In this document: in pieces, positions 49,882 to 60,218 of the stretch | Numbering within the stretch: position 1 is the stretch's first letter | Layout of the letters: the number at the start of each line of letters is the position of its first letter | DNA from: a virus | Reading direction: 5' to 3' (one strand) | Virus record (IMG/VR): IMGVR_UViG_3300032018_000001 | Span: 32,001-96,000 of that record | Length of the DNA stretch: 64,000 nucleotides | The notes under the pieces: generated by a model | Databases searched by the model: none | Told to the model about the DNA's origin: nothing | What the model saw: only the letters and a program-made list of their open reading frames with translations | Position numbers and translations under genes: made by a program

Positions 49882-50262
49882 ATGAGAATCCTACAAATCG
49901 GAACGCAGAAGTACACGCAGGTTATTTGCAAGGATGAGCCTAACAGTGTGAATGGTGGCGGAGCCTGTCATTCCTACGCGGTGCTCCCAACAGAGGCGGA
50001 TTTTAGCAAAGATGCAGCGGGAATACAGCTTGCTACTGTAAACTTTCAAAACGGCCCTATCAAAGAAGCGGGCGTGAACGGGTGCCACAACGAAGACCTG
50101 CTTGCAATCGTCATTGACCGGCTGGAGCATTTCCAGAAGGGCTCCTTTGCTTGCCGGGAGAACGCGCTGGCACTGACCAAGTTGGAAGAGGCGATGCACT
50201 GGCTGCGGCACCGCACAAGCGCCAGGGAGGCCCGCGGCGTAGAAGGCACCAGCCAGAAATAG
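49882..50262 (+). CDS. tad1: Tad1-like (Acb2/Tad1) anti-defence sponge protein
   Basis: 'GGACHSY', 'FQNGP', 'DLLAIVIDRLEHFQKG.F.CRENALALTKLEEAMHW..R...R..RGVEGT'. Confidence 0.8.
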   Translation: MRILQIGTQKYTQVICKDEPNSVNGGGACHSYAVLPTEADFSKDAAGIQLATVNFQNGPIKEAGVNGCHNEDLLAIVIDRLEHFQKGSFACRENALALTKLEEAMHWLRHRTSAREARGVEGTSQK

Positions 50263-51198
50263 GAGATGTTATGGAAATAACATACAGTCCTGCTCAGTTA
50301 CGGCAGTACATCGAGAAGCTGTGATGGAAATAAAAATCGGTAATGCAGTTATAGGAAAAATTGACTCCGTGAAAACGCGGGACAAAGAGCGAGTGCTGAG
50401 CATAGACCCGGCTGCGCTCGCTAAGGATTTTAGCACCTGGGCGTCTTACCTACCAGGGACGGGGATATTTACCGTGGAGCTGACAAGGCCTGCCAAGTGT
50501 CCAGTCTGTAGCAAGCTTGGTTGTAAAGAACATATTGCTGTAAAGCAGGATTGCTTGAAATTGAAGGAGGATGCTAATGGCTTGTGATGGAAAATGTTTA
50601 TCCTGCAGTGCGTGGAAGACGTGTACTAATTTTAAACGATAGAGGTAACTATGCACACTGTATTACCGTGGATACTTATTGCTCTGGCCATTGCAGCTTT
50701 TGTTTTGGCGCAGTACCTGAAATTTAAGAACGGCACCGTCATGCGCCTTAATGACAGGATTTTAAAATTGGTAAGTAAGAAGGGTACGTTTACCAAAGAA
50801 GAACTGTTTCAGCTTGCGGAAGACTATCAATCGCTGGAGCGCATTTACCTGGAGCGCAAGGAAACTGCCAAGGCAAAAGTCTGTCGTGCCTTTGCTGATG
50901 GGTTTATGGAAATGTCTGAGGGAGCAGACCGGCGCACTCCTCCTGCTCCCACAGGTGCGCCTGATGACCGTGTAGCCGGTAGCTTGCTATTATAAACCTG
51001 CGGCCTGAGCCGTAGTACCTTGCTACTACTATCATGAGCGTAGCAGCAAGGTCTTTTAAATTCGCAGGGTAATAAGTGATAAACATCGGGGATGTAATGT
51101 GTAGCCCTTGTAAAGGGAGCGCGGAGAATAATTCCGGTGTTGCTTACGCCCTGCTACCATTTTTATATTGTTTGCAGAGAATGCTCTTTCAAATTTTA

Positions 51199-51546
51199 GG
51201 GGGTGAACGGACTCGATTTGAGAATTTAAGTAGTAGGTGCATGCTGAGGACGCAGGTGGGCCTCATAAAAATCCTGCAACAAACAAACAACGAATCCAAT
51301 GTTGTTTCTCTGGCCACGCGCCAGAGCGCTGCCTTACAGCTCTCTTTCGTAGCTGCAAGGGCCAGTGTCGCAAACGAAGCGCTCCGTCTCGCAGCGTAAG
51401 CGAGATTGATTGCGGGCTAAGTCCCGTTGCTGGCGTGAAACTGGTGCTGGGTAACTGACACGTCATAAGATGAGACCCGGATAAGCATGTAGTACCTACG
51501 CGGACGTTTTCAAAGACCGGGCTATCATAGGCCCGCACCTCCACCA
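51199..51546 (+). ncRNA. ssrA: tmRNA
   Basis: acceptor GGGGGTG/CACCTCC with G3-U, 3' ACCA; pk1 GAGG/CCTC plus GCAGG/CCTGC; tag ORF ends LRLAA-TAA (51399). Confidence 0.9.
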
Positions 51547-51606
51547 TATTTTTTTTCGGAGCAGCAGTTACTTTTTTCCGGATAGCTGCTGCATCGTTTG
51601 TTGTGG

Positions 51607-51640
51607 GCCCTGCTACTCTAACCAGTAGCAGGGCTTTTTT
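51607..51640 (+). terminator. repeated CCCTGCTAC..GTAGCAGGG terminator (also 52788-52819, 55494-55527)
   Basis: three near-identical hairpins followed by T6. Confidence 0.85.
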
Positions 51641-51720
51641 ATTGTGTAAATTAGCAGGCTGGCCGTATTAATATGGTAAGAGGCTAAAGGGTACTACTAC
51701 TATAAAAAGGGGATAGACTT

Positions 51721-52314
51721 ATGTTATTAGATGCTAGAAAAATTATAGGTAAACTTTGCGGTAATAAAAAATATCATACACTTGATGTTCGGATTATTGC
51801 TGAGCTTGTTTATGATATAGCTACTATTGCTAATTCGGAATCTTCCGATGCTAATTCGGAATCTTCCGATAAAAAGAAACACCCTATTCAGTCACAAAGA
51901 ACAGGTTTTGTGGATATTGGAAGTTGCCAGCGGAGTATTTTGGATTTGTTGGCCGTGGGCAGCTCTGACCAAGCCAAGATTTGCACTTCTTTAGGTATTA
52001 AGAGCCCTACTGCTAATATAGCACTGAATAAACTTCATAAAAAGAAACTTATTTCTCGTAAGAAATCTGGCAAGTGTTTTATTTATCGAGTATATACAAA
52101 CGGAAAGAGACAGGAAACTTTTGATGTGCGTACCAATATGACTAAACGCGAGAGAAATTCTCTTATCTATGATAAATTTAAGCAGGGAGAAACCAAAGCA
52201 CAGCTTGCTGCTGCTTTTTTTCTTGATAATAATACTGTTGACCATATTATTAAGAAATGCAAAGAACAAAGTCAGGTGGTTAAGCCAGTTGCAGAATTAT
52301 CAGCAGTATCATAA
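51721..52314 (+). CDS. winged-HTH + HTH DNA-binding protein
   Basis: wHTH paralogous to the C-terminus of 5518-6222; contains a 21-bp tandem duplication at 51829-51870. Confidence 0.7.
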   Translation: MLLDARKIIGKLCGNKKYHTLDVRIIAELVYDIATIANSESSDANSESSDKKKHPIQSQRTGFVDIGSCQRSILDLLAVGSSDQAKICTSLGIKSPTANIALNKLHKKKLISRKKSGKCFIYRVYTNGKRQETFDVRTNMTKRERNSLIYDKFKQGETKAQLAAAFFLDNNTVDHIIKKCKEQSQVVKPVAELSAVS

Positions 52315-53766
52315 AGGACGTAACGGATGAATAAGCCCATGCGTAAGCTGGCCAAGAGGGTTGCTAAGGATTTGCGAAAGCAGATTGACAAAGAGTGCAA
52401 GGAAAAAGGAAAGCCTTTCGGTACGCTTTCTGACAAATATAAGGTTGTGGCGTTCCTGGGCTACAGGCCCAGAAACGATTTTCTTATTGCTGGTCTGGGG
52501 GGAATTTAATGGCTAAGGTCATTGAGCGGTTATCTCCTAACGGCCAAGCTTACATGCGTGACAACGTGATGACCGGCTACGACTCTGATTTTGGCCGGTC
52601 AACTGTTTTTGTGGTATGCCCTTTTGTGCAGCAGGCTGATGCTTTGGGTTTCGGCCCTGTCAAAAGCTTAAGCCTGTTGCTTCTGCTCGCCAATTCCTGC
52701 ACTGGTCTGCACATCAATATTCGGGCTGTGAGGACGGGGATTTGACTACCCGTTCCCGTGAAGTCTGAACCTCAGCTGCAGGGAGAGGCCCTGCTACTCC
52801 AAGGGTAGCAGGGTTTTTTGTCTTAGTAGGGTAAATTTAAAGATAAATACTTTCATTATTTGCTTGCATTCCTGATTGTAATTGCTTATATTAGTAGTGT
52901 AGGGAAATGAGTATCACTGAGAAATCAAAAAAGCTCTTCATTGATTACGTGAAGGATGCTGGGAACTGGTCTGGATGCCCTGTAGTGGGCGGGAACGTGG
53001 GAGGAAGCAAGGAAGACCGCGGGAACCTTACTCACCTGAAGAAGCTCGGACTCGTAGTAGGCGTTGATGATGAGGAGACTCCTTACATCGTTTTTACCAA
53101 AAAAGGTTTTGATTATGCTTGCAAGCTTGGCCTTGCGGAATACCTGGAAGAGAGTGATTGTACGGCTCAGTCTGAAATAAAGGAGAACTCATGAAGCCCC
53201 TATCAGAATTGGAAAAGCTCGTTCTCTCGGAAGAAAACAGGAAGCAGCAGGCGCGGAACCTGTACGTGAACATTTCACGGGAAGACCTTCGCAGGATGGT
53301 ACGCGCTTATCGCAGGAAGGAGAAAGCATGAGCCTTGAACTTGATATGGCGCTGACGCGAATAGACCTGGACAAAGAGAACGCGGACAGGAAAGAGCGGG
53401 CGCGTTACCAGGAACGGTTGCTAAGCATGATTAAGGCCCAGATACCCCACCGGTACGAAGACTGGAAAAAGGAAATCCTTTCAGGTACTATCCAAGACCC
53501 GCGCCTGAAAGTCTGGATAGGAAATGAGCGGTACAAGTCCGGGCGCGGAACGCTCTGGTCAAATTACGTTCAAAGCATCATCGACACATTTCCTGATACG
53601 ATAAAATAGGAGGTACTATGAGTCCTGAAGAAAAGGTAAAAAAGTTGAGCGGAGATTTGGTCAAGGCTCTTGCAGAGTTGCCAGCGTATCCTTACGATGT
53701 TGTTTCTGGGTTAGTAGCCTCTGCCCGGCAGCTGAAAGACAAAATCAATAAACACCTGGAGGGTAA

Positions 53767-54021
53767 ATGATTAGTAACATAACCATTATTCCTAACCGGG
53801 TGAAGCATGGCCGGTCACTGACCCTTGCTAAGGGTGAAGCAACCTTTGAGAACGGACTGATAGTATCCTTCCGGTTATCGGAGAGTAGCAAGGGGATTCA
53901 ATGCCTCTGGAGGGGCGTGAAGTTTTCCAGCGATGAAATCAAGAAGCAGGCGTCCAATCGAGTATTAGCAACCTACGTGATTAATCACTGCATGGACGAT
54001 AAGAAGGAAGGGGTACTATGA
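53767..54021 (+). CDS. SpoVG-like nucleic-acid-binding protein
   Basis: 'ISNITI....LAKGEATFENGLIVSFRLSESSKG'. Confidence 0.4.
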   Translation: MISNITIIPNRVKHGRSLTLAKGEATFENGLIVSFRLSESSKGIQCLWRGVKFSSDEIKKQASNRVLATYVINHCMDDKKEGVL

Positions 54022-54695
54022 CATTTAATCAATGGTGGAAGAAATACTTCCCTACCTCAAAGAACACAACGGATGGCGGTGTACGGCTTTGAAAAGAAAA
54101 GAGCTTAAGAAATTAAAAAAGAACGGCGGTTTTTAACTAAACACAACAACCTTATACGAACAGGTTTTTAAAGAAGGGAGCGTAGTATGCTAAGATTCAG
54201 GAAAGTTTTAGAAAGGCCATCTTGTTTTGAAATGCTTCGCAATAATAATTCAGACCGTAGGGGAGTGCTTCGTAAGAGTAGGGTAGGATTTCTTTATAAG
54301 GCGAACAACGGTATTGTTATTGAGCAAGAGCTCACAATTCTTACCGCGGCAGAGATGAAACAGTGCCTGCGTAAACTTAAGGAGCTGTAGTATGAAAGAG
54401 CTGACCCTGAAAGATGTTGACTGCCTTGTCACATGGCCCCCTGGAAGCGTGGGAGAGCTTTCAGACCGGACAATGTTGAATGCCTACCTGGAGCTGTGCA
54501 AACACCACGGGTACGGCCGCACGGGACAGATAGCAGAGTCCGTGGAGGACATCTGGAGGCATCCGGAGAAGACGGCCGATTATCAGGAACAGAAAACCAA
54601 GCACCTGCGGGAGATGGACGAACTTTTACTTAATGGTGTAGCAGGGTCTGTATTATTAACTCACTCTTGGTATTTTCTCTGAAGTATTTATTTAC

Positions 54696-54746
54696 TGTGC
54701 GGTAGAGCAGAGTCGAGTAATGCATCGTATCGTATAGGTTTTTTAA
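54696..54746 (+). repeat. NGY-NN pentamer tract 1 (8 units) ending AGGTTTTTTAA
   Basis: TGTgc GGTag AGCag AGTcg AGTaa TGCat CGTat CGTat. Confidence 0.8.
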
Positions 54747-54761
54747 CAAAAGGAGAGGCAG

Positions 54762-55355
54762 ATGAAATCATTCAGAATTGGAATTGAGGCGAATCCGGTT
54801 TTTCCCTATTACATGCAGCACCGTATGGATGACACTAAACTAGCTGACTGGGAAAAGAATCGCGGAAAGATTATGGAGCGTCCGGAGCTTAGCAAGGAAG
54901 ACAACCTGAGGGCGGAGTATCACGCTTACCGGGATGAGAGGGGTTACTACATACCAACGGAGCACATCCTTGGTGCAATCAAGATTGCCAGTAAGGAATT
55001 CAAATCCAAAACAGGCTCTGGAAGGAAGAGCATGAAGGATGAGGTAGCAGGAGGATTCTTTATTCAGGGAGATGAGAATCCGTAAAAACTGTACTTTGAA
55101 TTTTCAGATTTTCAAATTGATAAACGGTCAGCCGTGAATCAGAATAACAAGGCCCGCATAATTGTTATCCGTCCTAAGTTTAAAGGATGGAAGGCACAAT
55201 TCAATCTCATGGTGGATAACGAAACTGTGACCCCTGAGACCATCAGAGGTATTGTGGAGCACGCCGGGCAGTATGTGGGAATAGGAAGCTACAGGCCTCC
55301 TAAGGGCGGAGCGTTTGGGAGATTTAAGATTAGTACGTTTGCAAAAGCAGCGTAG
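54762..55355 (+). pseudogene. RAMP/Cas7-like protein interrupted by an in-frame TAA at 55083-55085
   Basis: both ORF halves share a frame; 'YYIPTEHILGAIKIA', 'RPKF..W...F', G-rich loop 'GQYVGIGSYRPPKGGAFGRF'. Confidence 0.7.
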
Positions 55356-55494
55356 CCTATTGCAGTGTACGTCATGTATTGTTTCGCTTTTATTTTTCTC
55401 GCATGGTAATGTATTGTAATGCACGGTAAGGTAAAGGTTTTTTAAATTGTATGCCGTGTCGTAATGTAATGTGTCGTTTGGTAACGTAGTGCAG
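55351..55494 (+). repeat. NGY-NN pentamer tracts 2-4
   Basis: 55400-55434 CGCat GGTaa TGTat TGTaa TGCac GGTaa GGTaa + AGGTTTTTTAA; 55455-55494 has 8 units; 55351-55389 is imperfect. Confidence 0.8.
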
Positions 55495-55665
55495 CCCTGC
55501 TACTCTAACGGGTAGCAGGGCTTTTTTCCCCCTGCTATTAGTACCTTCCGTAGTAGCTACCTGCTACGCTTTCGACATCCCCTGCCACTAATCATTATAA
55601 TTGAATTTTATCTTATTTGTGAAAAAGGAATAAAGCTCACACATCCTCACCGGCTGGAGCAGTTA

Positions 55666-57225
55666 ATGGCACAGGTAGAGCTCAAAGAAGTTTTCTCCAA
55701 TCTAAAAATAATCCGCGAGCAGGACGGCGGCAAAAAAGCCGTCTACAAATTCTCTGGCCCCTTCCAGGAAATGAATGATGTCCGGGGCACCAAAAACAAA
55801 AACGGCCGTATCTATAATAAGAAACTCTGGGAGCGCGTGTTCGGTGACGCCGGTGTTCAGGAGCGTTTGAGTAGCAAGCGCATGCTTGGCGAGCTCGACC
55901 ATCCTACTGATGATGGACAGATTCGGCGCACAAGTCATATTATAACAGAAGCGCGTCCTGACTGGAATGATGGCGTCATTTACGGAACGCTGGAGCTTCT
56001 GAATCATGACCAGGGAGATGCTGCTCTTATTCGTGCTCTGGTTGACCAGGGCGTTCAGTTGTGTGTATCAAGCCGCGGGTTTGGTGAGTTTATGAAGGAC
56101 GGTTGCACTATCGACCCCGAAACTTACAAACTTGTCACATGGGATATTGTTCTCGACCCTTCCGTACCAATAGCAACCCTGAAGAAGGTTGCTGAATCGG
56201 TGAATCATAACTTACCGATTGAAAGCAGGGCCAGGGCTAATTTCATAGAAACCCTTGCGGGCGCAAATAAGGAAACCAAAGAAACAAAGTCCGAAACAAA
56301 AACCATACAGGAGGATTCGATGGATGAGAAAATTGTAAGTCTCATGGAAAAGAACGGCGAGCTTCAGGCCACCAACGCGAAGAACGAAGCGAACCTGAAC
56401 AACATGAAAGAACTGCTCACGAACAAGAACGAGCGGATTTCCGCGCTCGAAAACGCGAACAAGTCCCTCACGGAAAAATCCGCCAAGCTGGAAGAGACCA
56501 GCGCGGCCCTGACCAAAGCCAATGAAGCGACCACCAATCTTCAGAAGCAGCTCAAGGAATATGAGGAAATCGAAGACCGCGCCATCAAAGTCATCGAATC
56601 CCTCAAAGCCAAACTGGAGCACGCGGATACCCTCAGCGAAAAAGCCGCGGACACCATCGAAGAGCTCATGTCCAAAGTGAAAGAGCGCAAAACCAACGAA
56701 GCCGATGACGCCGACAAAGCGGACAAGGACGTTGACGTTAAGGGAACGCTCCGCAACTGGACACCTGACCCCAGCAAGGGCGATGAGCTTGAACAGCTCA
56801 AAGGCCTTGTGAAGACGATGGAAAAGAAACGCGAAGAGGGCAAGAAGAAAATGGAAGACGCCGATGCGGACGCGAAAGCTGCTGCTGACAAAGCCGCGGC
56901 TGACAAAAAGGAAAAGGCGAAGAAGGAAGACATCGCGGACATGCAGAAGGCGAAAGATGCCAAAGACGCGGCCGACAAAAAGGAAAAGGCGAAGAAGGAA
57001 GACGCCGACCACAAGGAACCGGATGCGGATGACAAGGCCAAGGACGAAGATGATGACGCCGACAAGGATGCGGACGGTAAGGCCAAGACCAACGAAAATG
57101 ATGACGAAGACGATGATGACAAGCCTTACGAGCCCACGGCCAAGGAAAAGAAAGAAGCCCGTATCAACATGCTGAAGAACCTGAGCGAGCAGACCGTGCG
57201 TGACGGCGCTCCCAAGAAACTGTAA
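55666..57225 (+). CDS. prohead protease (T4 gp21-like) fused to coiled-coil/acidic scaffold
   Basis: 'NKNGRIY', 'LGELDHP', 'SH', 'VSSRGFG', 'TWDIVLDPS'; D/K/E/A-rich C-terminus. Confidence 0.9.
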   Translation: MAQVELKEVFSNLKIIREQDGGKKAVYKFSGPFQEMNDVRGTKNKNGRIYNKKLWERVFGDAGVQERLSSKRMLGELDHPTDDGQIRRTSHIITEARPDWNDGVIYGTLELLNHDQGDAALIRALVDQGVQLCVSSRGFGEFMKDGCTIDPETYKLVTWDIVLDPSVPIATLKKVAESVNHNLPIESRARANFIETLAGANKETKETKSETKTIQEDSMDEKIVSLMEKNGELQATNAKNEANLNNMKELLTNKNERISALENANKSLTEKSAKLEETSAALTKANEATTNLQKQLKEYEEIEDRAIKVIESLKAKLEHADTLSEKAADTIEELMSKVKERKTNEADDADKADKDVDVKGTLRNWTPDPSKGDELEQLKGLVKTMEKKREEGKKKMEDADADAKAAADKAAADKKEKAKKEDIADMQKAKDAKDAADKKEKAKKEDADHKEPDADDKAKDEDDDADKDADGKAKTNENDDEDDDDKPYEPTAKEKKEARINMLKNLSEQTVRDGAPKKL

Positions 57226-57245
57226 GAGGTTGCAGAAAGAAAATG

Positions 57246-57274
57246 ACCGCTCCCCTTAACCGGGGAGCGGTTTT
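57246..57274 (+). terminator. hairpin between scaffold and capsid genes (terminator or mRNA stabiliser)
   Basis: ACCGCTCCCC/GGGGAGCGGT followed by TTT. Confidence 0.55.
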
Positions 57275-57353
57275 GAAAACAAACGCCCAGACAAAAACGC
57301 ACTTCGTTTTCGGCAAGGGTTAAACACAGAAACCAAAACAAGGAGTTTTTTCA

Positions 57354-58781
57354 ATGAAAGAAAAAGACGTTTATTCCAATGACGTTATCGTTGAAGGTCT
57401 CCGTGCCTGCGAAAACAAGCGCAACAAATCTTTCGTGGAATCCTCAATCGGGATTTACGAGAAACTGCACGGCCGCAAACCTGACACGATGTTCATGTCC
57501 GCTCTCGGCACCGTTCTGGAGAATTTCCGCCAATGGCGGCACGCCAACTTGGTTGAAGCCACCAATCAGGCGTCCTTCCCGGCCCTGCGCGATTACGGCT
57601 TTGAGCTCATCACGGCTCTGTTCCCCGGCCTGATTGCGAATGAAATCTTCACCATCCAGCCCGCGAAGTTTAAAAACTTCAGTATCTTCTACCAGACCTT
57701 CAAGTATCAGACGGCCAAAGGAATCACACCGGCGAATACGCCCAACTTCGATGCTCTGAAATACTTCCCGATTGACCAGAATTACACTCTGGATTCGGAA
57801 GTCAACAAAGTCATCGGCACAGGCACCGGCGCGACTGCGGCCTTCTCGTACAACCCGGCACCCTTCCGTCCTCTCGTTCCGGGCACCGTTTCTGTTACCT
57901 CCATCAACACGGCCAACGCCGCAATGGCATTGGTTGACAACGGCACCGGCACGATGGTAGGCGATGGCACCGGCTCGGTGGACTATACCACCGGCGTAAT
58001 CGCTGTGACCTTCAACGCCAACGTGAAATCGGGCGCTCCCGTTCTCTCTTCTTACCAGTTTATCGGTGAAGGCTCCAAAGAAAATGCCGCGGAGCTCGGC
58101 CTGACAATCACCGAAATTCAGGGACAGGCGAAGGAACGCAGGCTGCGTTACAATTTCTCAATCGAATCGCAGTTCAGCTACAGGCAACAGTGGGGCCGTA
58201 GCATGGACGCCGACCTCCTGGCCGCGGCGATGGCTGAAATCCGTAAGGAAATCGACCAAGACCTCATCCAGCTCGGCAACACAACGGCACTCGACCCGGC
58301 TTCCGCGGGCAGCGTTGTGTGGAATCGTACACCGGACGTGGGCGTGCAGTACTTCTTCTGGCGTGAGCAGTTCATCGACACGCTGAACGCTGCAGGCAAC
58401 CTCATCGTTAAAGCCACCGGCTTTGGCGAAGGCAATATCGTGGTAGGCGGTCTGAATTTCAAGCAAATCGTTGAAATCATCGGGCCCCGTTTCACACCTT
58501 CCGGAGTCGCAGGCGTCAAAGGCTCGCGCTTCATCGGAACCATTGACGGCACGCGCCGTTGCTACTATGACCCCAGCCTGAGCGACAACCAGTTCTTCGT
58601 GACGTACAAATCCCCGAATCCTCTGGAGCCGGGAATTGTGTACAGTCCTTGGATGCCCTTATTCGCCAGTGACCCTCATATGTTAGCCGATGGCAGCTTA
58701 CACCGTTACCTCATTACCAGCACCGGTAAGACGGTAATCAACAAAAAGCTGTTCGCGGCCGGTACTATCGTTCAGTCTTAA
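57354..58781 (+). CDS. major capsid protein (T4 gp23-like)
   Basis: 'LIANEIF.IQP', 'AKERRL...FSIE', 'EI.KEID', 'G.GN..V', 'VYSPWMPL'; inserted beta domain. Confidence 0.9.
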   Translation: MKEKDVYSNDVIVEGLRACENKRNKSFVESSIGIYEKLHGRKPDTMFMSALGTVLENFRQWRHANLVEATNQASFPALRDYGFELITALFPGLIANEIFTIQPAKFKNFSIFYQTFKYQTAKGITPANTPNFDALKYFPIDQNYTLDSEVNKVIGTGTGATAAFSYNPAPFRPLVPGTVSVTSINTANAAMALVDNGTGTMVGDGTGSVDYTTGVIAVTFNANVKSGAPVLSSYQFIGEGSKENAAELGLTITEIQGQAKERRLRYNFSIESQFSYRQQWGRSMDADLLAAAMAEIRKEIDQDLIQLGNTTALDPASAGSVVWNRTPDVGVQYFFWREQFIDTLNAAGNLIVKATGFGEGNIVVGGLNFKQIVEIIGPRFTPSGVAGVKGSRFIGTIDGTRRCYYDPSLSDNQFFVTYKSPNPLEPGIVYSPWMPLFASDPHMLADGSLHRYLITSTGKTVINKKLFAAGTIVQS

Positions 58782-58816
58782 CAGAGGCCGGCAGTAGTAT
58801 GAGGTGAGTAAAAAAC

Positions 58817-58851
58817 AAAGGGAGCAGGGTTGCATACCTGCTCCCTTTTTT
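58817..58851 (+). terminator. rho-independent terminator
   Basis: AAAGGGAGCAGG/CCTGCTCCCTTT followed by a T run. Confidence 0.85.
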
Positions 58852-58865
58852 GTTAAATTACAAGC

Positions 58866-59501
58866 ATGAGTTTAAAAGACAAACAATATCACGAAGCGCA
58901 TAAAAATGACCCTGCTTATGTTGAACGCCGAAGACTGGCGAGCAAGCGCTTTAGAGAGAAACGCTTAGCAGGTCACAAACTTTATAGAGAGAAACACCGG
59001 GAAGAAATAAAGTGCAAAGAAAAAGAGTTCAGAGATGCCAACAAAAATAATCCTGAGTACAGAAAAAAGCGTGCTGCTTACAGCAGGAAATTTTTTAAGA
59101 ATCATCATGAGGACAGACTTGCTGACCATAGAGCTTACTACAAGAAGAATAAGCATAAAGTAAATGCACAGACGGCTGCTTATCGTAGCACTGGAAGAGG
59201 AAAAGCTTTGTCTATCAAAAATCACAGAAAATATCACCTGAGTAGCAGGTATGGAATTACGCCTGAGCAGTTTGAGCAAATGCGAATTGCTCAAGGTAGC
59301 AGGTGTGCTATTTGTAATGACAGCTTTAAGCATGTCGAAATAAAAACAGGAAACAAGTTCACCTGCACAATAGACCACGACCACGCTACAGGTAAGCTCA
59401 GGCAGTTGCTTTGTGACAGGTGTAACAAAGTTTTAGGTTTTGTTTCTGAGAATAGTATGCTACTCAAAAATATGATTGATTATTTAGGTAAGTGGAAATA
59501 A
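58866..59501 (+). CDS. endonuclease VII-type homing endonuclease
   Basis: 'YGIT..Q...CAIC...IDHDH.TG..R.LLC..CN..LG'. Confidence 0.9.
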   Translation: MSLKDKQYHEAHKNDPAYVERRRLASKRFREKRLAGHKLYREKHREEIKCKEKEFRDANKNNPEYRKKRAAYSRKFFKNHHEDRLADHRAYYKKNKHKVNAQTAAYRSTGRGKALSIKNHRKYHLSSRYGITPEQFEQMRIAQGSRCAICNDSFKHVEIKTGNKFTCTIDHDHATGKLRQLLCDRCNKVLGFVSENSMLLKNMIDYLGKWK

Positions 59502-59534
59502 AGGTAGACTGTCAATTTAAACAAGGAGTAAGAG

Positions 59535-60218
59535 ATGAATCAGCAAGGCGCAGAAGTAGTGAAAGGTTATGTTGTCATTCGTAACCTGTCGAAAGGCCCC
59601 AAGGGTTTTTCAGACCATAGAAACAGCCCGGTCACGCTGGACGCATTCGGCGGAGCAAACGACCAGATTAAAATCCTGCTGGAAGAAAGCAACCTGGATA
59701 AAGCGGTACGGCATTACGTTACGTATCGCAAGGCTGCAATGCAGGTCACGTTCTCAGAAGGTATCGTTGACAAGTTCCCGGAATTCAAAGACCATCTCAC
59801 CGTGCATTCGACTGCCGGTGTTGACCAGAGCCTTGCTGACCGCGTGGAATTCGTCCGCAAGTCACAGGCCGATAAGAAATCCCAAGAAGACAGTGCTGCG
59901 GTACGCCTGGTGCGTGCCCGCGCTCAGAATACTATCGCTGACAATAGCAAGGAACGCACTGCTATGTCCAGCTCAGATGCTCACCCTGGCAACTTTCAGG
60001 AACGCCATGTACCGGCTGCGGATAAGGCCGCGCCCGCCCGCGCTCCTATGGGAAACGAAGAGCAAGAAGGAGACGTACTGACTGTGGAAAACCTGAGTCA
60101 GAAAGAAGTGCCTGAGCTGATTGAGATTGCGTCCAAACTCGGCGTGAAACTCAAAGCAGACGTGGCCAAGGGTGCTGCTGTTAAGAGCATCCTGTTGTCG
60201 CTTAACAAGCAGGGCTAA
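59535..60218 (+). CDS. hypothetical protein with C-terminal Rho-N/HeH-like helix pair
   Basis: 'LSQKEVPELIEIASKLGVK......K...IL'. Confidence 0.45.
   Translation: MNQQGAEVVKGYVVIRNLSKGPKGFSDHRNSPVTLDAFGGANDQIKILLEESNLDKAVRHYVTYRKAAMQVTFSEGIVDKFPEFKDHLTVHSTAGVDQSLADRVEFVRKSQADKKSQEDSAAVRLVRARAQNTIADNSKERTAMSSSDAHPGNFQERHVPAADKAAPARAPMGNEEQEGDVLTVENLSQKEVPELIEIASKLGVKLKADVAKGAAVKSILLSLNKQG

What the first reader, a model, noticed from the sequence alone, without database searches (positions are those of the whole stretch)
54696..55527. Solitary RAMP/Cas7-like gene flanked by 5-nt-periodic NGY-NN tracts: candidate non-CRISPR RNA-guided module
Seen in sequence: the protein, read through one TAA (about 197 aa), has an N-proximal 'IP..HILGAIK.A' helix and a C-terminal G-rich loop 'GIGSYRPPKGGAFGRF'. 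On both sides are tracts of 7-8 pentamers with a fixed G and pyrimidine (NGY) followed by two variable bases. Tract 1 is at 54696-54735 (NN = GC AG AG CG AA AT AT AT). Tract 2 (55351-55389) has a 1-nt slip and one deviant unit. Tract 3 is at 55400-55434 (AT AA AT AA AC AA AA) and tract 4 at 55455-55494 (GT AA AA GT TT AA AG AG). Tracts 1 and 3 end in the same AGGTTTTTTAA, and the locus closes with a terminator. No cas1/cas3/cas10 and no repeat-spacer array are present. Established: RAMP/Cas7 proteins polymerise on RNA with a fixed nucleotide step. Inference: one subunit binds each pentamer through NGY and displays NN, giving a gapped guide code, possibly against competing phages. From memory this resembles the phage 'VIPR' systems with GGY/NN RNAs; I could not verify that here.
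Basis: partly seen in the sequence, partly recalled or inferred. Interest (0 to 1): 0.95.

Follow-up and report, generated by a model that had tools for sequence, protein, structure and literature searches.

The report
Phage VIPR locus with broken vipr
This is a real copy of the VIPR system, a CRISPR-like phage system described in 2026 in which a small Cas7-like protein is loaded with guide RNAs built from five-base repeats; here the protein gene carries a premature stop codon while its guide-RNA tracts are still present.

Summary
Three perfect NGY-NN pentamer tracts (8, 7 and 8 units) and one degenerate tract flank a 197-codon frame that is interrupted by one TAA. All lie on one strand and the locus ends in a strong terminator.

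A profile of this protein's own clade matches PDB 36pp 'SUSP1 Vipr protein' end to end (E 2e-15). The predicted fold matches Csm3/Cas7. All 18 viral relatives examined have an uninterrupted gene, and 17 of them carry same-strand pentamer tracts of at least 6 units within about 1 kb of it. VIPR was published in 2026 preprints, which also list YNNNG-type repeats like these.

The host is a complete 141.8-kb sediment phage genome with terminal repeats. It has no Cas1 match, no tandem repeat array within 5 kb of the locus and no conserved accessory (vap) gene.

Three details are particular to this copy:
- Codon 108 is TAA where homologues mostly have Glu. TAA is the phage's commonest stop and there is no tRNA gene, so the gene is probably freshly inactivated.
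- The SUSP1 residue that reads the first G (Asp177) is Ser or Ala in the aligned clade members, which fits the loss of that G from the repeats.
- The guides are short and A-biased, and no target could be assigned.

This scan has found VIPR on other DNA many times (277 notes). The locus is a new member of a known kind.

The parts
54696..54746 (+). vrRNA tract 1: 8 NGY-NN pentamers (NN = GC AG AG CG AA AT AT AT) plus the tail AGGTTTTTTAA (54736-54746), 13 nt after the stop of the upstream ORF and just before the vipr ribosome-binding site
54750..54755 (+). Shine-Dalgarno-like AAGGAG, 6 nt before the vipr ATG
   Evidence: read from the sequence
54762..55085 (+). vipr, N-terminal 107 codons plus the in-frame TAA. 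Contains strand 1 with His20 (= SUSP1 His17), the helical bundle with Arg34 (= Lys33) and helix 1
55083..55085 (+). Premature TAA at codon 108. Homologues have Glu in 33 of 49, Asp in 9 and Gln in 2, so one G-to-T change from GAA would give it
   Evidence: the same letters stand in an independent assembly of the probable source run, depth about 79
55086..55355 (+). vipr, C-terminal 89 codons in the same frame, ending in TAG. Contains the thumb Arg137 (= Arg138) and the G-loop GIGSYRP...FGRF (Ser176, Tyr177, Arg178 = Asp177, Trp178, Arg179)
55351..55399 (+). vrRNA tract 2, degenerate: 8 units with one CCT unit and one 4-nt unit. It starts on the vipr stop codon and ends in a T-rich run
   Evidence: not picked up as a perfect run
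55400..55445 (+). vrRNA tract 3: 7 pentamers (NN = AT AA AT AA AC AA AA) plus the tail AGGTTTTTTAA
55455..55494 (+). vrRNA tract 4: 8 pentamers (NN = GT AA AA GT TT AA AG AG)
55493..55528 (+). Intrinsic terminator: 13-bp stem with 8 G-C pairs, 4-nt loop and a T run. It closes the locus and overlaps the last unit of tract 4

Best explanation
The locus is a VIPR (Viral Interference Programmable Repeat) system in a complete 141.8-kb phage genome from a sediment metagenome. It belongs to a clade that has no accessory gene and whose guide repeats read NGY-NN (the published 'YNNNG' variant) instead of GGY-NN.

By homology with the SUSP1 system, Vipr protomers would line up along each tract, one per pentamer. 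They would flip out and hold the N-G-Y bases and present the NN pairs. The filament would then bind double-stranded DNA that reads NN-x-NN-x (the one-base skip rule) and block transcription of a rival mobile element.

In this phage, codon 108 of vipr is a true stop codon (TAA). As sequenced, the locus therefore cannot make full-length Vipr. It is most likely a very recently inactivated copy whose guide tracts have not yet decayed.

Shown here: homology, fold, tracts, the conservation of tracts next to homologues, and the stop codon. Inferred: RNA expression, filament assembly, DNA silencing and loss of function.
For: Homology and fold:
- The read-through protein matches phrog_4652 across the stop codon (E 2.9e-21).
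- It has 138 full-length homologues, the 120 listed being 46-67% identical.
- tblastn finds the SUSP1 gene (28% identity, 94% coverage, E 4e-10). That gene lies between GGY-NN arrays in the SUSP1 record.
- A profile of 50 clade members, built without SUSP1, matches PDB 36pp_D 'SUSP1 Vipr protein' over positions 1-187 (E 2.1e-15).
- The AlphaFold model (pLDDT 80) has Csm3/Cas7 chains as its best Foldseek matches.

Contact residues named in 10.64898/2026.04.26.720927, mapped:
- His17, Arg138 and Arg179 are kept. Lys33 is Arg and Trp178 is Tyr.
- Asp177, which contacts G1, is Ser in this protein and Ser or Ala in all 13 aligned clade members.
- The first repeat base is G in only 13% of clade units, against 74% in SUSP1.

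Tracts:
- Three runs of 7-8 units lie within 800 bp, where 0.04 are expected in the whole genome.
- 17 of the 18 IMG/VR relatives have tracts of 6-23 units on the vipr strand within about 1 kb of the gene. Several end in AGTTT/AGTTC + TTTTA tails like the AGGTTTTTTAA seen here. The closest homologue has tracts too.

The stop codon:
- TAA ends 65 of 143 long ORFs, more than either other stop codon.
- The genome has no tRNA gene.
- All 18 relatives have uninterrupted genes.
- An independent assembly of the source run has the same letters.
- Only 4 of 59 conserved columns deviate, and only 1 of these lies after the stop, so there is no visible decay downstream.
Against: - No RNA data exist for this phage, so expression of the tracts is not shown.
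- The tracts (7-8 units) are at the short end of the clade's range of 7-23 and below the 9-16 reported for type II.
- Their first variable base is A in 18 of 23 units, so their information content is low.
- No target was found above chance.
- No sigma-70-like promoter was called upstream of any tract.
- The lack of decay downstream of the stop would also fit a gene that is still translated, or a variant that is not fixed in the population.
Confidence: 0.85

Rival explanations
1. The vipr gene is functional after all. Either the TAA is read through at a useful rate (leaky termination or a host suppressor tRNA), or it is a non-fixed or consensus-level variant and most virions carry an intact gene.
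For: The 89 codons after the stop keep every invariant residue of the family and deviate at only 1 conserved column. The ribosome-binding site, the tracts and the terminator are all intact. Assembled contigs cannot show minority alleles.
Against: TAA is the commonest stop codon in this genome. The phage has no tRNA gene. Two assemblies of a run with depth about 79 agree on TAA. None of the 18 relatives examined has a stop there.
Confidence: 0.2
2. The phage now acts as a guide-only ('VIPR-null') element. It no longer makes Vipr, but its vrRNAs are kept because they load onto the Vipr of co-infecting relatives and redirect it. This has been reported for SUSP1-family phages and satellites that carry solo vrRNAs.
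For: The 16 October 2026 preprint describes 346 vipr-null phages that carry solo vrRNAs. Here three tracts are perfectly periodic although the gene is broken.
Against: The published null phages lost vipr by deletion, not by a point mutation. A single recent nonsense change explains intact tracts without any selection. No target, in vipr genes or elsewhere, was found.
Confidence: 0.12
3. The gene is a stray CRISPR-Cas Cas7/Csm3 remnant, and the pentamer tracts are unrelated low-complexity DNA or protein-binding repeats.
For: The best structural matches are Csm3/Cas7 chains.
Against: Those matches have only 9-14% identity and TM-scores of 0.35-0.52, whereas the sequence profile matches SUSP1 Vipr end to end. 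No Cas1 match was found in the genome and no tandem repeat array lies within 5 kb. The tracts recur next to homologues in unrelated viral contigs.
Confidence: 0.02

Closest known systems
Type II VIPR of Escherichia phage SUSP1 (Vipr, vap1, four vrRNAs; bioRxiv 10.64898/2026.04.26.720920 and .720927; PDB 36pp)
   Same: - Homologous Vipr protein of about 195 residues.
- Pentamer-repeat tracts on the gene's strand, one upstream and an array downstream.
- The His, thumb Arg, aromatic and Arg RNA-contact residues are conserved.
- Phage-borne, with no cas1 match and no nearby repeat array.
   Different: - Only 28% identity.
- The repeat is NGY-NN, not GGY-NN.
- The G1-contacting Asp177 is Ser.
- No vap gene.
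- Tracts of 7-8 units rather than 11-14.
- A short U-rich tail (AGGUUUUUUAA) or a terminator instead of a pseudoknot tail.
- vipr is interrupted by TAA.
VIPR types with 'YNNNG' repeats and no accessory gene (seven types and six vap genes are reported; the type tables were not available to me)
   Same: The repeat consensus (fixed G and pyrimidine, free first base) and the solitary vipr fit what the methods section lists as alternative vrRNA repeats. They also fit the arithmetic that one of the seven types has no vap gene.
   Different: I could not assign the type, because no supplementary table is held. Hammerhead-interspersed arrays are reported for type I. No ribozyme was found here, and none reached Rfam's gathering score in the relatives.
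VIPR-null phages with solo vrRNAs (bioRxiv 10.64898/2026.10.15.759431)
   Same: A phage that has guide tracts but, as sequenced, no working vipr.
   Different: The published cases lost vipr-vap1 through a shared 1,114-bp deletion and retain 1-2 guides with predicted targets. Here the loss is a single nonsense codon and no target is known.
CRISPR-Cas class 1 backbone subunits (Csm3/Cas7)
   Same: RRM core, G-rich loop and thumb. The protein is expected to polymerise on RNA with a fixed step.
   Different: A 5-nt rather than a 6-nt step. No cas1 match in the genome and no tandem repeat array within 5 kb. The similarity is structural only (Foldseek E 5e-5, 9-14% identity).

Membership tests
VIPR system | Vipr protein: a sequence homologue of characterised Vipr (SUSP1) | tested here: met
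   A clade profile built without SUSP1 matches PDB 36pp_D 'SUSP1 Vipr protein' at E 2.1e-15 over positions 1-187. tblastn to the SUSP1 gene gives E 4e-10.
VIPR system | RAMP fold with RRM core, G-rich loop and thumb | tested here: met
   AlphaFold model with pLDDT 80 and pTM 0.76. The listed Foldseek matches at E below 0.001 are backbone subunits of type III (Csm/Cmr) and type VII CRISPR complexes. The G-loop GIGSYRP...FGRF is present.
VIPR system | RNA-contact residues of SUSP1 Vipr (His17, Lys33, Arg138, Asp177, Trp178, Arg179) | tested here: inconclusive
   His, Arg138 and Arg179 are kept. Lys becomes Arg and Trp becomes Tyr. Asp177 is Ser in this protein and Ser or Ala in the 13 aligned clade members. 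This fits the free first base of the repeats but has not been tested by experiment.
VIPR system | Flanking tandem pentamer repeats of GGY/NN or a related consensus (at least 4 units), on the gene's strand, in non-coding DNA | tested here: met
   Tracts of 8, 7 and 8 perfect NGY-NN units plus one degenerate tract. YNNNG repeats are among the published variants.
VIPR system | The association of tracts with the gene is conserved among homologues | tested here: met
   17 of 18 IMG/VR loci, and the closest homologue, carry tracts of 6-23 units on the vipr strand within about 1 kb of the gene.
VIPR system | Accessory vap gene (typical, not universal) | tested here: not met
   Among 19 loci, the only ORF families of 50 aa or more shared across the clade's loci are vipr itself and antisense ORFs inside it. 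The neighbouring 96-aa ORF has no family match.
VIPR system | Intact vipr reading frame | tested here: not met
   In-frame TAA at codon 108. TAA is a normal stop codon here and there is no suppressor tRNA.
VIPR system | vrRNAs are expressed and co-purify with Vipr | not testable with these tools
   Needs small-RNA sequencing or a pull-down.
VIPR system | Guides match natural DNA targets under the one-base skip rule | tested here: inconclusive
   The best own-genome matches under the one-base skip (12-14 of 14-16 positions) are no better than under skips of 0 or 2. Exact IMG/VR hits number 12 and 90, against 27 and 87 for reversed-order controls.
CRISPR-Cas (class 1) | Repeat-spacer array and cas genes (cas1 and effector genes) | tested here: not met
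   No Cas1 match in the complete genome. No tandem repeat array within window 50000-60000. Other cas genes were not searched for.

The most novel reading that the evidence does not exclude
The nonsense-broken vipr with perfectly kept guide tracts is not decay but a maintained state. Either the phage supplies guides that use the Vipr of co-infecting relatives, or the TAA is read through to keep Vipr dosage low. Separately, the Asp-to-Ser change in the G-loop may be the switch that frees the first repeat base, giving a simple rule linking Vipr sequence to repeat consensus.
Probability: 0.12. Interest if true: 0.5.

Novelty: new member of a known kind. Interest (0 to 1): 0.3.

Why it matters
It adds one more environmental example to a family that is already in print and that this scan has met in more than 200 genomes. 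Three details are modestly useful:

- **A vap-less clade.** The clade has no accessory gene and uses NGY-NN repeats. A profile search finds 5,234 cluster representatives at E up to 0.001 and 1,366 at E up to 1e-10.
- **A testable residue-to-base link.** The G1-contacting Asp of SUSP1 Vipr is Ser or Ala in the clade members aligned, and the first repeat base is free there. This could help predict repeat consensus from protein sequence.
- **A snapshot of loss by point mutation.** A complete phage genome carries vipr knocked out by a single nonsense codon while its guides remain. This may show how guide-only phages arise.

Tried and rejected
- **Stop-codon recoding:** rejected. TAA is the commonest stop codon.
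- **Suppressor tRNA:** none. ARAGORN finds no tRNA in the window or the genome.
- **Functional split gene:** rejected. The only in-frame restart (GTG at 55134) would skip invariant residues Lys121, Ser123 and Ala124, and I saw no Shine-Dalgarno motif before it. A search for short homologues gave only this phage's own fragment and one protein that starts 16 nt from the end of its contig and so looks truncated.
- **Pfam:** no family for the protein.
- **Rfam:** nothing in the locus, and no hammerhead or other family between the tracts of the relatives.
- **Promoter scan:** no sigma-70-like site upstream of any tract. The host is unknown, so this says little.
- **RNA evidence:** no RNA holder is listed for this stretch. 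The single DNA run is the probable source and was laid as contigs only.
- **Self-targets:** best own-genome matches under the one-base skip are 12-14 of 14-16 positions, no better than under skips of 0 or 2.
- **Targets in IMG/VR:** guide 1 gave 12 exact hits and guide 4 gave 90. They fall into many small groups of near-identical contigs, and no contig is hit by both.
- **Controls for those hits:** reversed-unit-order controls gave 27 and 87 hits. The hit contexts have no homology to this phage's genes. The hits are therefore at chance level.
- **Collections not scanned:** metagenome and prokaryote genome collections, because 14-16 specified bases would give hundreds of chance hits there.
- **VIPR type assignment:** not possible, because no supplementary tables are held.

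Full report
**What is there**

The window is part of an IMG/VR virus record of 141,806 bp with direct terminal repeats, rated 100% complete by CheckV. Its only listed sequencing run is a sediment metagenome, probably its source. All long genes near the locus lie on the + strand. The locus sits between a block of small unknown genes and the head module. The next genes are a prohead protease at 55666-57225 and a major capsid protein at 57354-58781. That capsid protein is at most 30% identical to those of known phages, so the phage has no close cultured relative.

- Tract 1 (54696-54735) has 8 pentamers of the form N-G-Y-N-N.
- Tract 3 (55400-55434) has 7.
- Tract 4 (55455-55494) has 8.
- Tract 2 (55351-55389) keeps the period but has one CCT unit and one 4-nt unit.
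- Tracts 1 and 3 are each followed by AGGTTTTTTAA, an 11-mer that occurs nowhere else in the genome.
- Tract 4 runs into a 13-bp-stem terminator at 55493-55522.

With the genome's base composition, 0.04 runs of 7 or more units are expected on the + strand. In 100 shuffles none gave more than one such run. Three are observed within 800 bp, all on the gene's strand.

The reading frame from ATG 54762 to TAG 55353-55355 has a single in-frame TAA at 55083-55085.

**What the protein is**

Pfam has no family for it. PHROGs family 4652 (function unknown) aligns to residues 33-191, straight across the stop codon (E 2.9e-21). The large protein collection holds 138 full-length homologues, and the 120 listed are 46-67% identical. 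A profile search of 1.84 billion cluster representatives finds 5,234 relatives at E up to 0.001 and 1,366 at E up to 1e-10.

tblastn against phage records finds 128 genomes, mostly Felix O1-like coliphages and including SUSP1 (28% identity, 94% coverage, E 4e-10). In the SUSP1 record that gene lies between arrays of GGY-NN pentamers. This is the VIPR locus characterised in bioRxiv 10.64898/2026.04.26.720920.

A profile of 50 members of this protein's own clade, built without SUSP1, matches PDB entry 36pp chain D, 'SUSP1 Vipr protein', end to end at E 2.1e-15. The AlphaFold model (mean pLDDT 80) has Csm3/Cas7 subunits as its best Foldseek matches, with E from 5e-5 and 9-14% identity. The protein is therefore a Vipr: a RAMP by fold and a homologue of the solved Vipr by sequence.

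**Residues**

The cryo-EM preprint (10.64898/2026.04.26.720927) names the SUSP1 contacts:
- His17 and Asp177 read G1.
- Arg138 and Trp178 hold G2.
- Arg179 and helix 1 form the pyrimidine pocket.
- Lys33 touches the DNA backbone at the skipped base.

In the alignment these map to His20, Ser176, Arg137, Tyr177, Arg178 and Arg34 of this protein. All are conserved or conservatively replaced except Asp177. That residue is Ser here and in 12 of the 13 aligned clade members, and Ala in the other. Ser176 is also at least 90% conserved in the 50-sequence alignment.

The repeats differ in the matching way. The first base is G in 74% of SUSP1 units but in only 13% of 528 clade units, where A (42%) and T (32%) are commonest. 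The second base is G by definition of the scan, and the third is T in 84%. It is my inference, not a tested result, that loss of the Asp explains the free first base.

**Relatives**

Eighteen IMG/VR loci encode relatives.
- All 18 have uninterrupted genes.
- 17 of the 18 have tracts of 6-23 pentamers on the same strand within about 1 kb of the gene. The most distant locus, L019, has only short runs.
- In the 15 closest loci (L002-L016) there are 42 tracts of 7 or more units.
- About a third of the loci end their tracts in AGTTT/AGTTC + TTTTA, like the AGGTTTTTTAA seen here. Others end in small hairpins.
- The closest homologue (67% identity, on a 957-bp contig) has two tracts downstream of its gene.
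- No other ORF family is shared across the clade's loci, so this clade has no accessory vap gene.

The discovery paper reports seven VIPR types but six vap genes. It also lists YNNNG among the alternative repeat forms. Both points fit this clade. I could not read the type tables. No hammerhead ribozyme or other Rfam family lies between the tracts here, and none reached the gathering score in the relatives.

**The stop codon**

- TAA ends 65 of 143 long ORFs in this genome, more than either other stop codon.
- There is no tRNA gene, so no suppressor tRNA.
- Homologues have Glu at this position in 33 of 49 cases, Asp in 9 and Gln in 2. A single G-to-T change in GAA is the simplest origin.
- Logan's independent assembly of the probable source run (word depth about 79) has identical letters across the whole locus. 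That rules out a low-coverage error but not a minority allele.
- The protein deviates from its family at 4 of 59 columns that are at least 90% conserved, against a family range of 0-7. Only one of those columns lies after the stop, and the closest homologue shares that residue.

The break therefore looks very recent, or the gene is still translated in some way. An internal restart at GTG 55134 would skip invariant residues, and I saw no ribosome-binding site before it. The one other 'short' homologue starts 16 nt from the end of its contig and so looks truncated.

**Guides and targets**

The guides are short (7-8 units, against 7-23 in the clade and 9-16 reported for type II). Their first variable base is A in 18 of 23 units, so each carries only 14-16 informative bases of low complexity.

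- Under the published one-base skip rule, the best matches in the phage's own genome are 12-14 of 14-16 positions, no better than with skips of 0 or 2.
- Exact matches in IMG/VR number 12 for guide 1 and 90 for guide 4. They fall into many small groups of near-identical contigs, and no contig is hit by both guides.
- Controls with the unit order reversed give 27 and 87 hits.
- The sequences around the hits share no homology with this phage's genes.

No target can be named.

**How it most likely works**

By homology, Vipr protomers would bind one pentamer each, hold N-G-Y and display NN. The filament would bind double-stranded DNA reading NN-x-NN-x and silence transcription of a competing element.

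The three downstream tracts are only 10 nt apart and are followed by one terminator. I therefore infer a single transcript whose U-rich punctuation marks the ends of the guides.

In this phage the system is probably dead because of the nonsense codon. My odds are about 0.6-0.65 for a fixed, inactivating mutation. I give 0.2 to read-through or a non-fixed variant, and 0.12 to a maintained guide-only state like the published VIPR-null phages.

**Novelty**

VIPR has been in print since April 2026. This scan's index holds 277 notes on it from at least 205 genomes. This locus is a new member of a known kind. Its points of minor interest are the vap-less NGY-NN clade, the Asp-to-Ser correlation, and loss of vipr by a point mutation in a complete genome.

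Noticed in passing
L013:4123-4526 (IMGVR_UViG_3300008262_000018, 121 kb): This related VIPR-carrying viral contig encodes a full-length tmRNA (Rfam RF00023, 90.8 bits) about 560 nt downstream of its vipr gene.
   Followed up: no
window 55494-55527: A second, 6,059-bp contig in the same sequencing run carries this terminator hairpin on the opposite strand with 2 differences, inside otherwise unrelated sequence. Another element in the sample may share the terminator.
   Followed up: no
window 55666-57225: The prohead protease gene (Peptidase_S77, phrog_207) has a protease match confined to its first 180 residues or so. The remaining 340 residues are a coiled-coil-like, Lys/Asp/Glu/Ala-rich region with 33-nt tandem repeats (56902-57018). 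It may be a fused scaffold-like domain.
   Followed up: no
window 54392-54682: A 96-aa ORF ends 13 nt before tract 1. It has no Pfam or PHROG family and is not conserved next to vipr in relatives, so any promoter for tract 1 must lie inside its 3' end.
   Followed up: partly
L017 and L018 (IMG/VR contigs 3300037518_000172 and 3300037515_000419): These distant, GC-rich vipr relatives (31% identity) have NGC-NN tracts that score as periodic on both strands, because the units are largely GC-symmetric. Two tracts share an identical 3' half ending in AGCAC AGCAC AGTCC.
   Followed up: no
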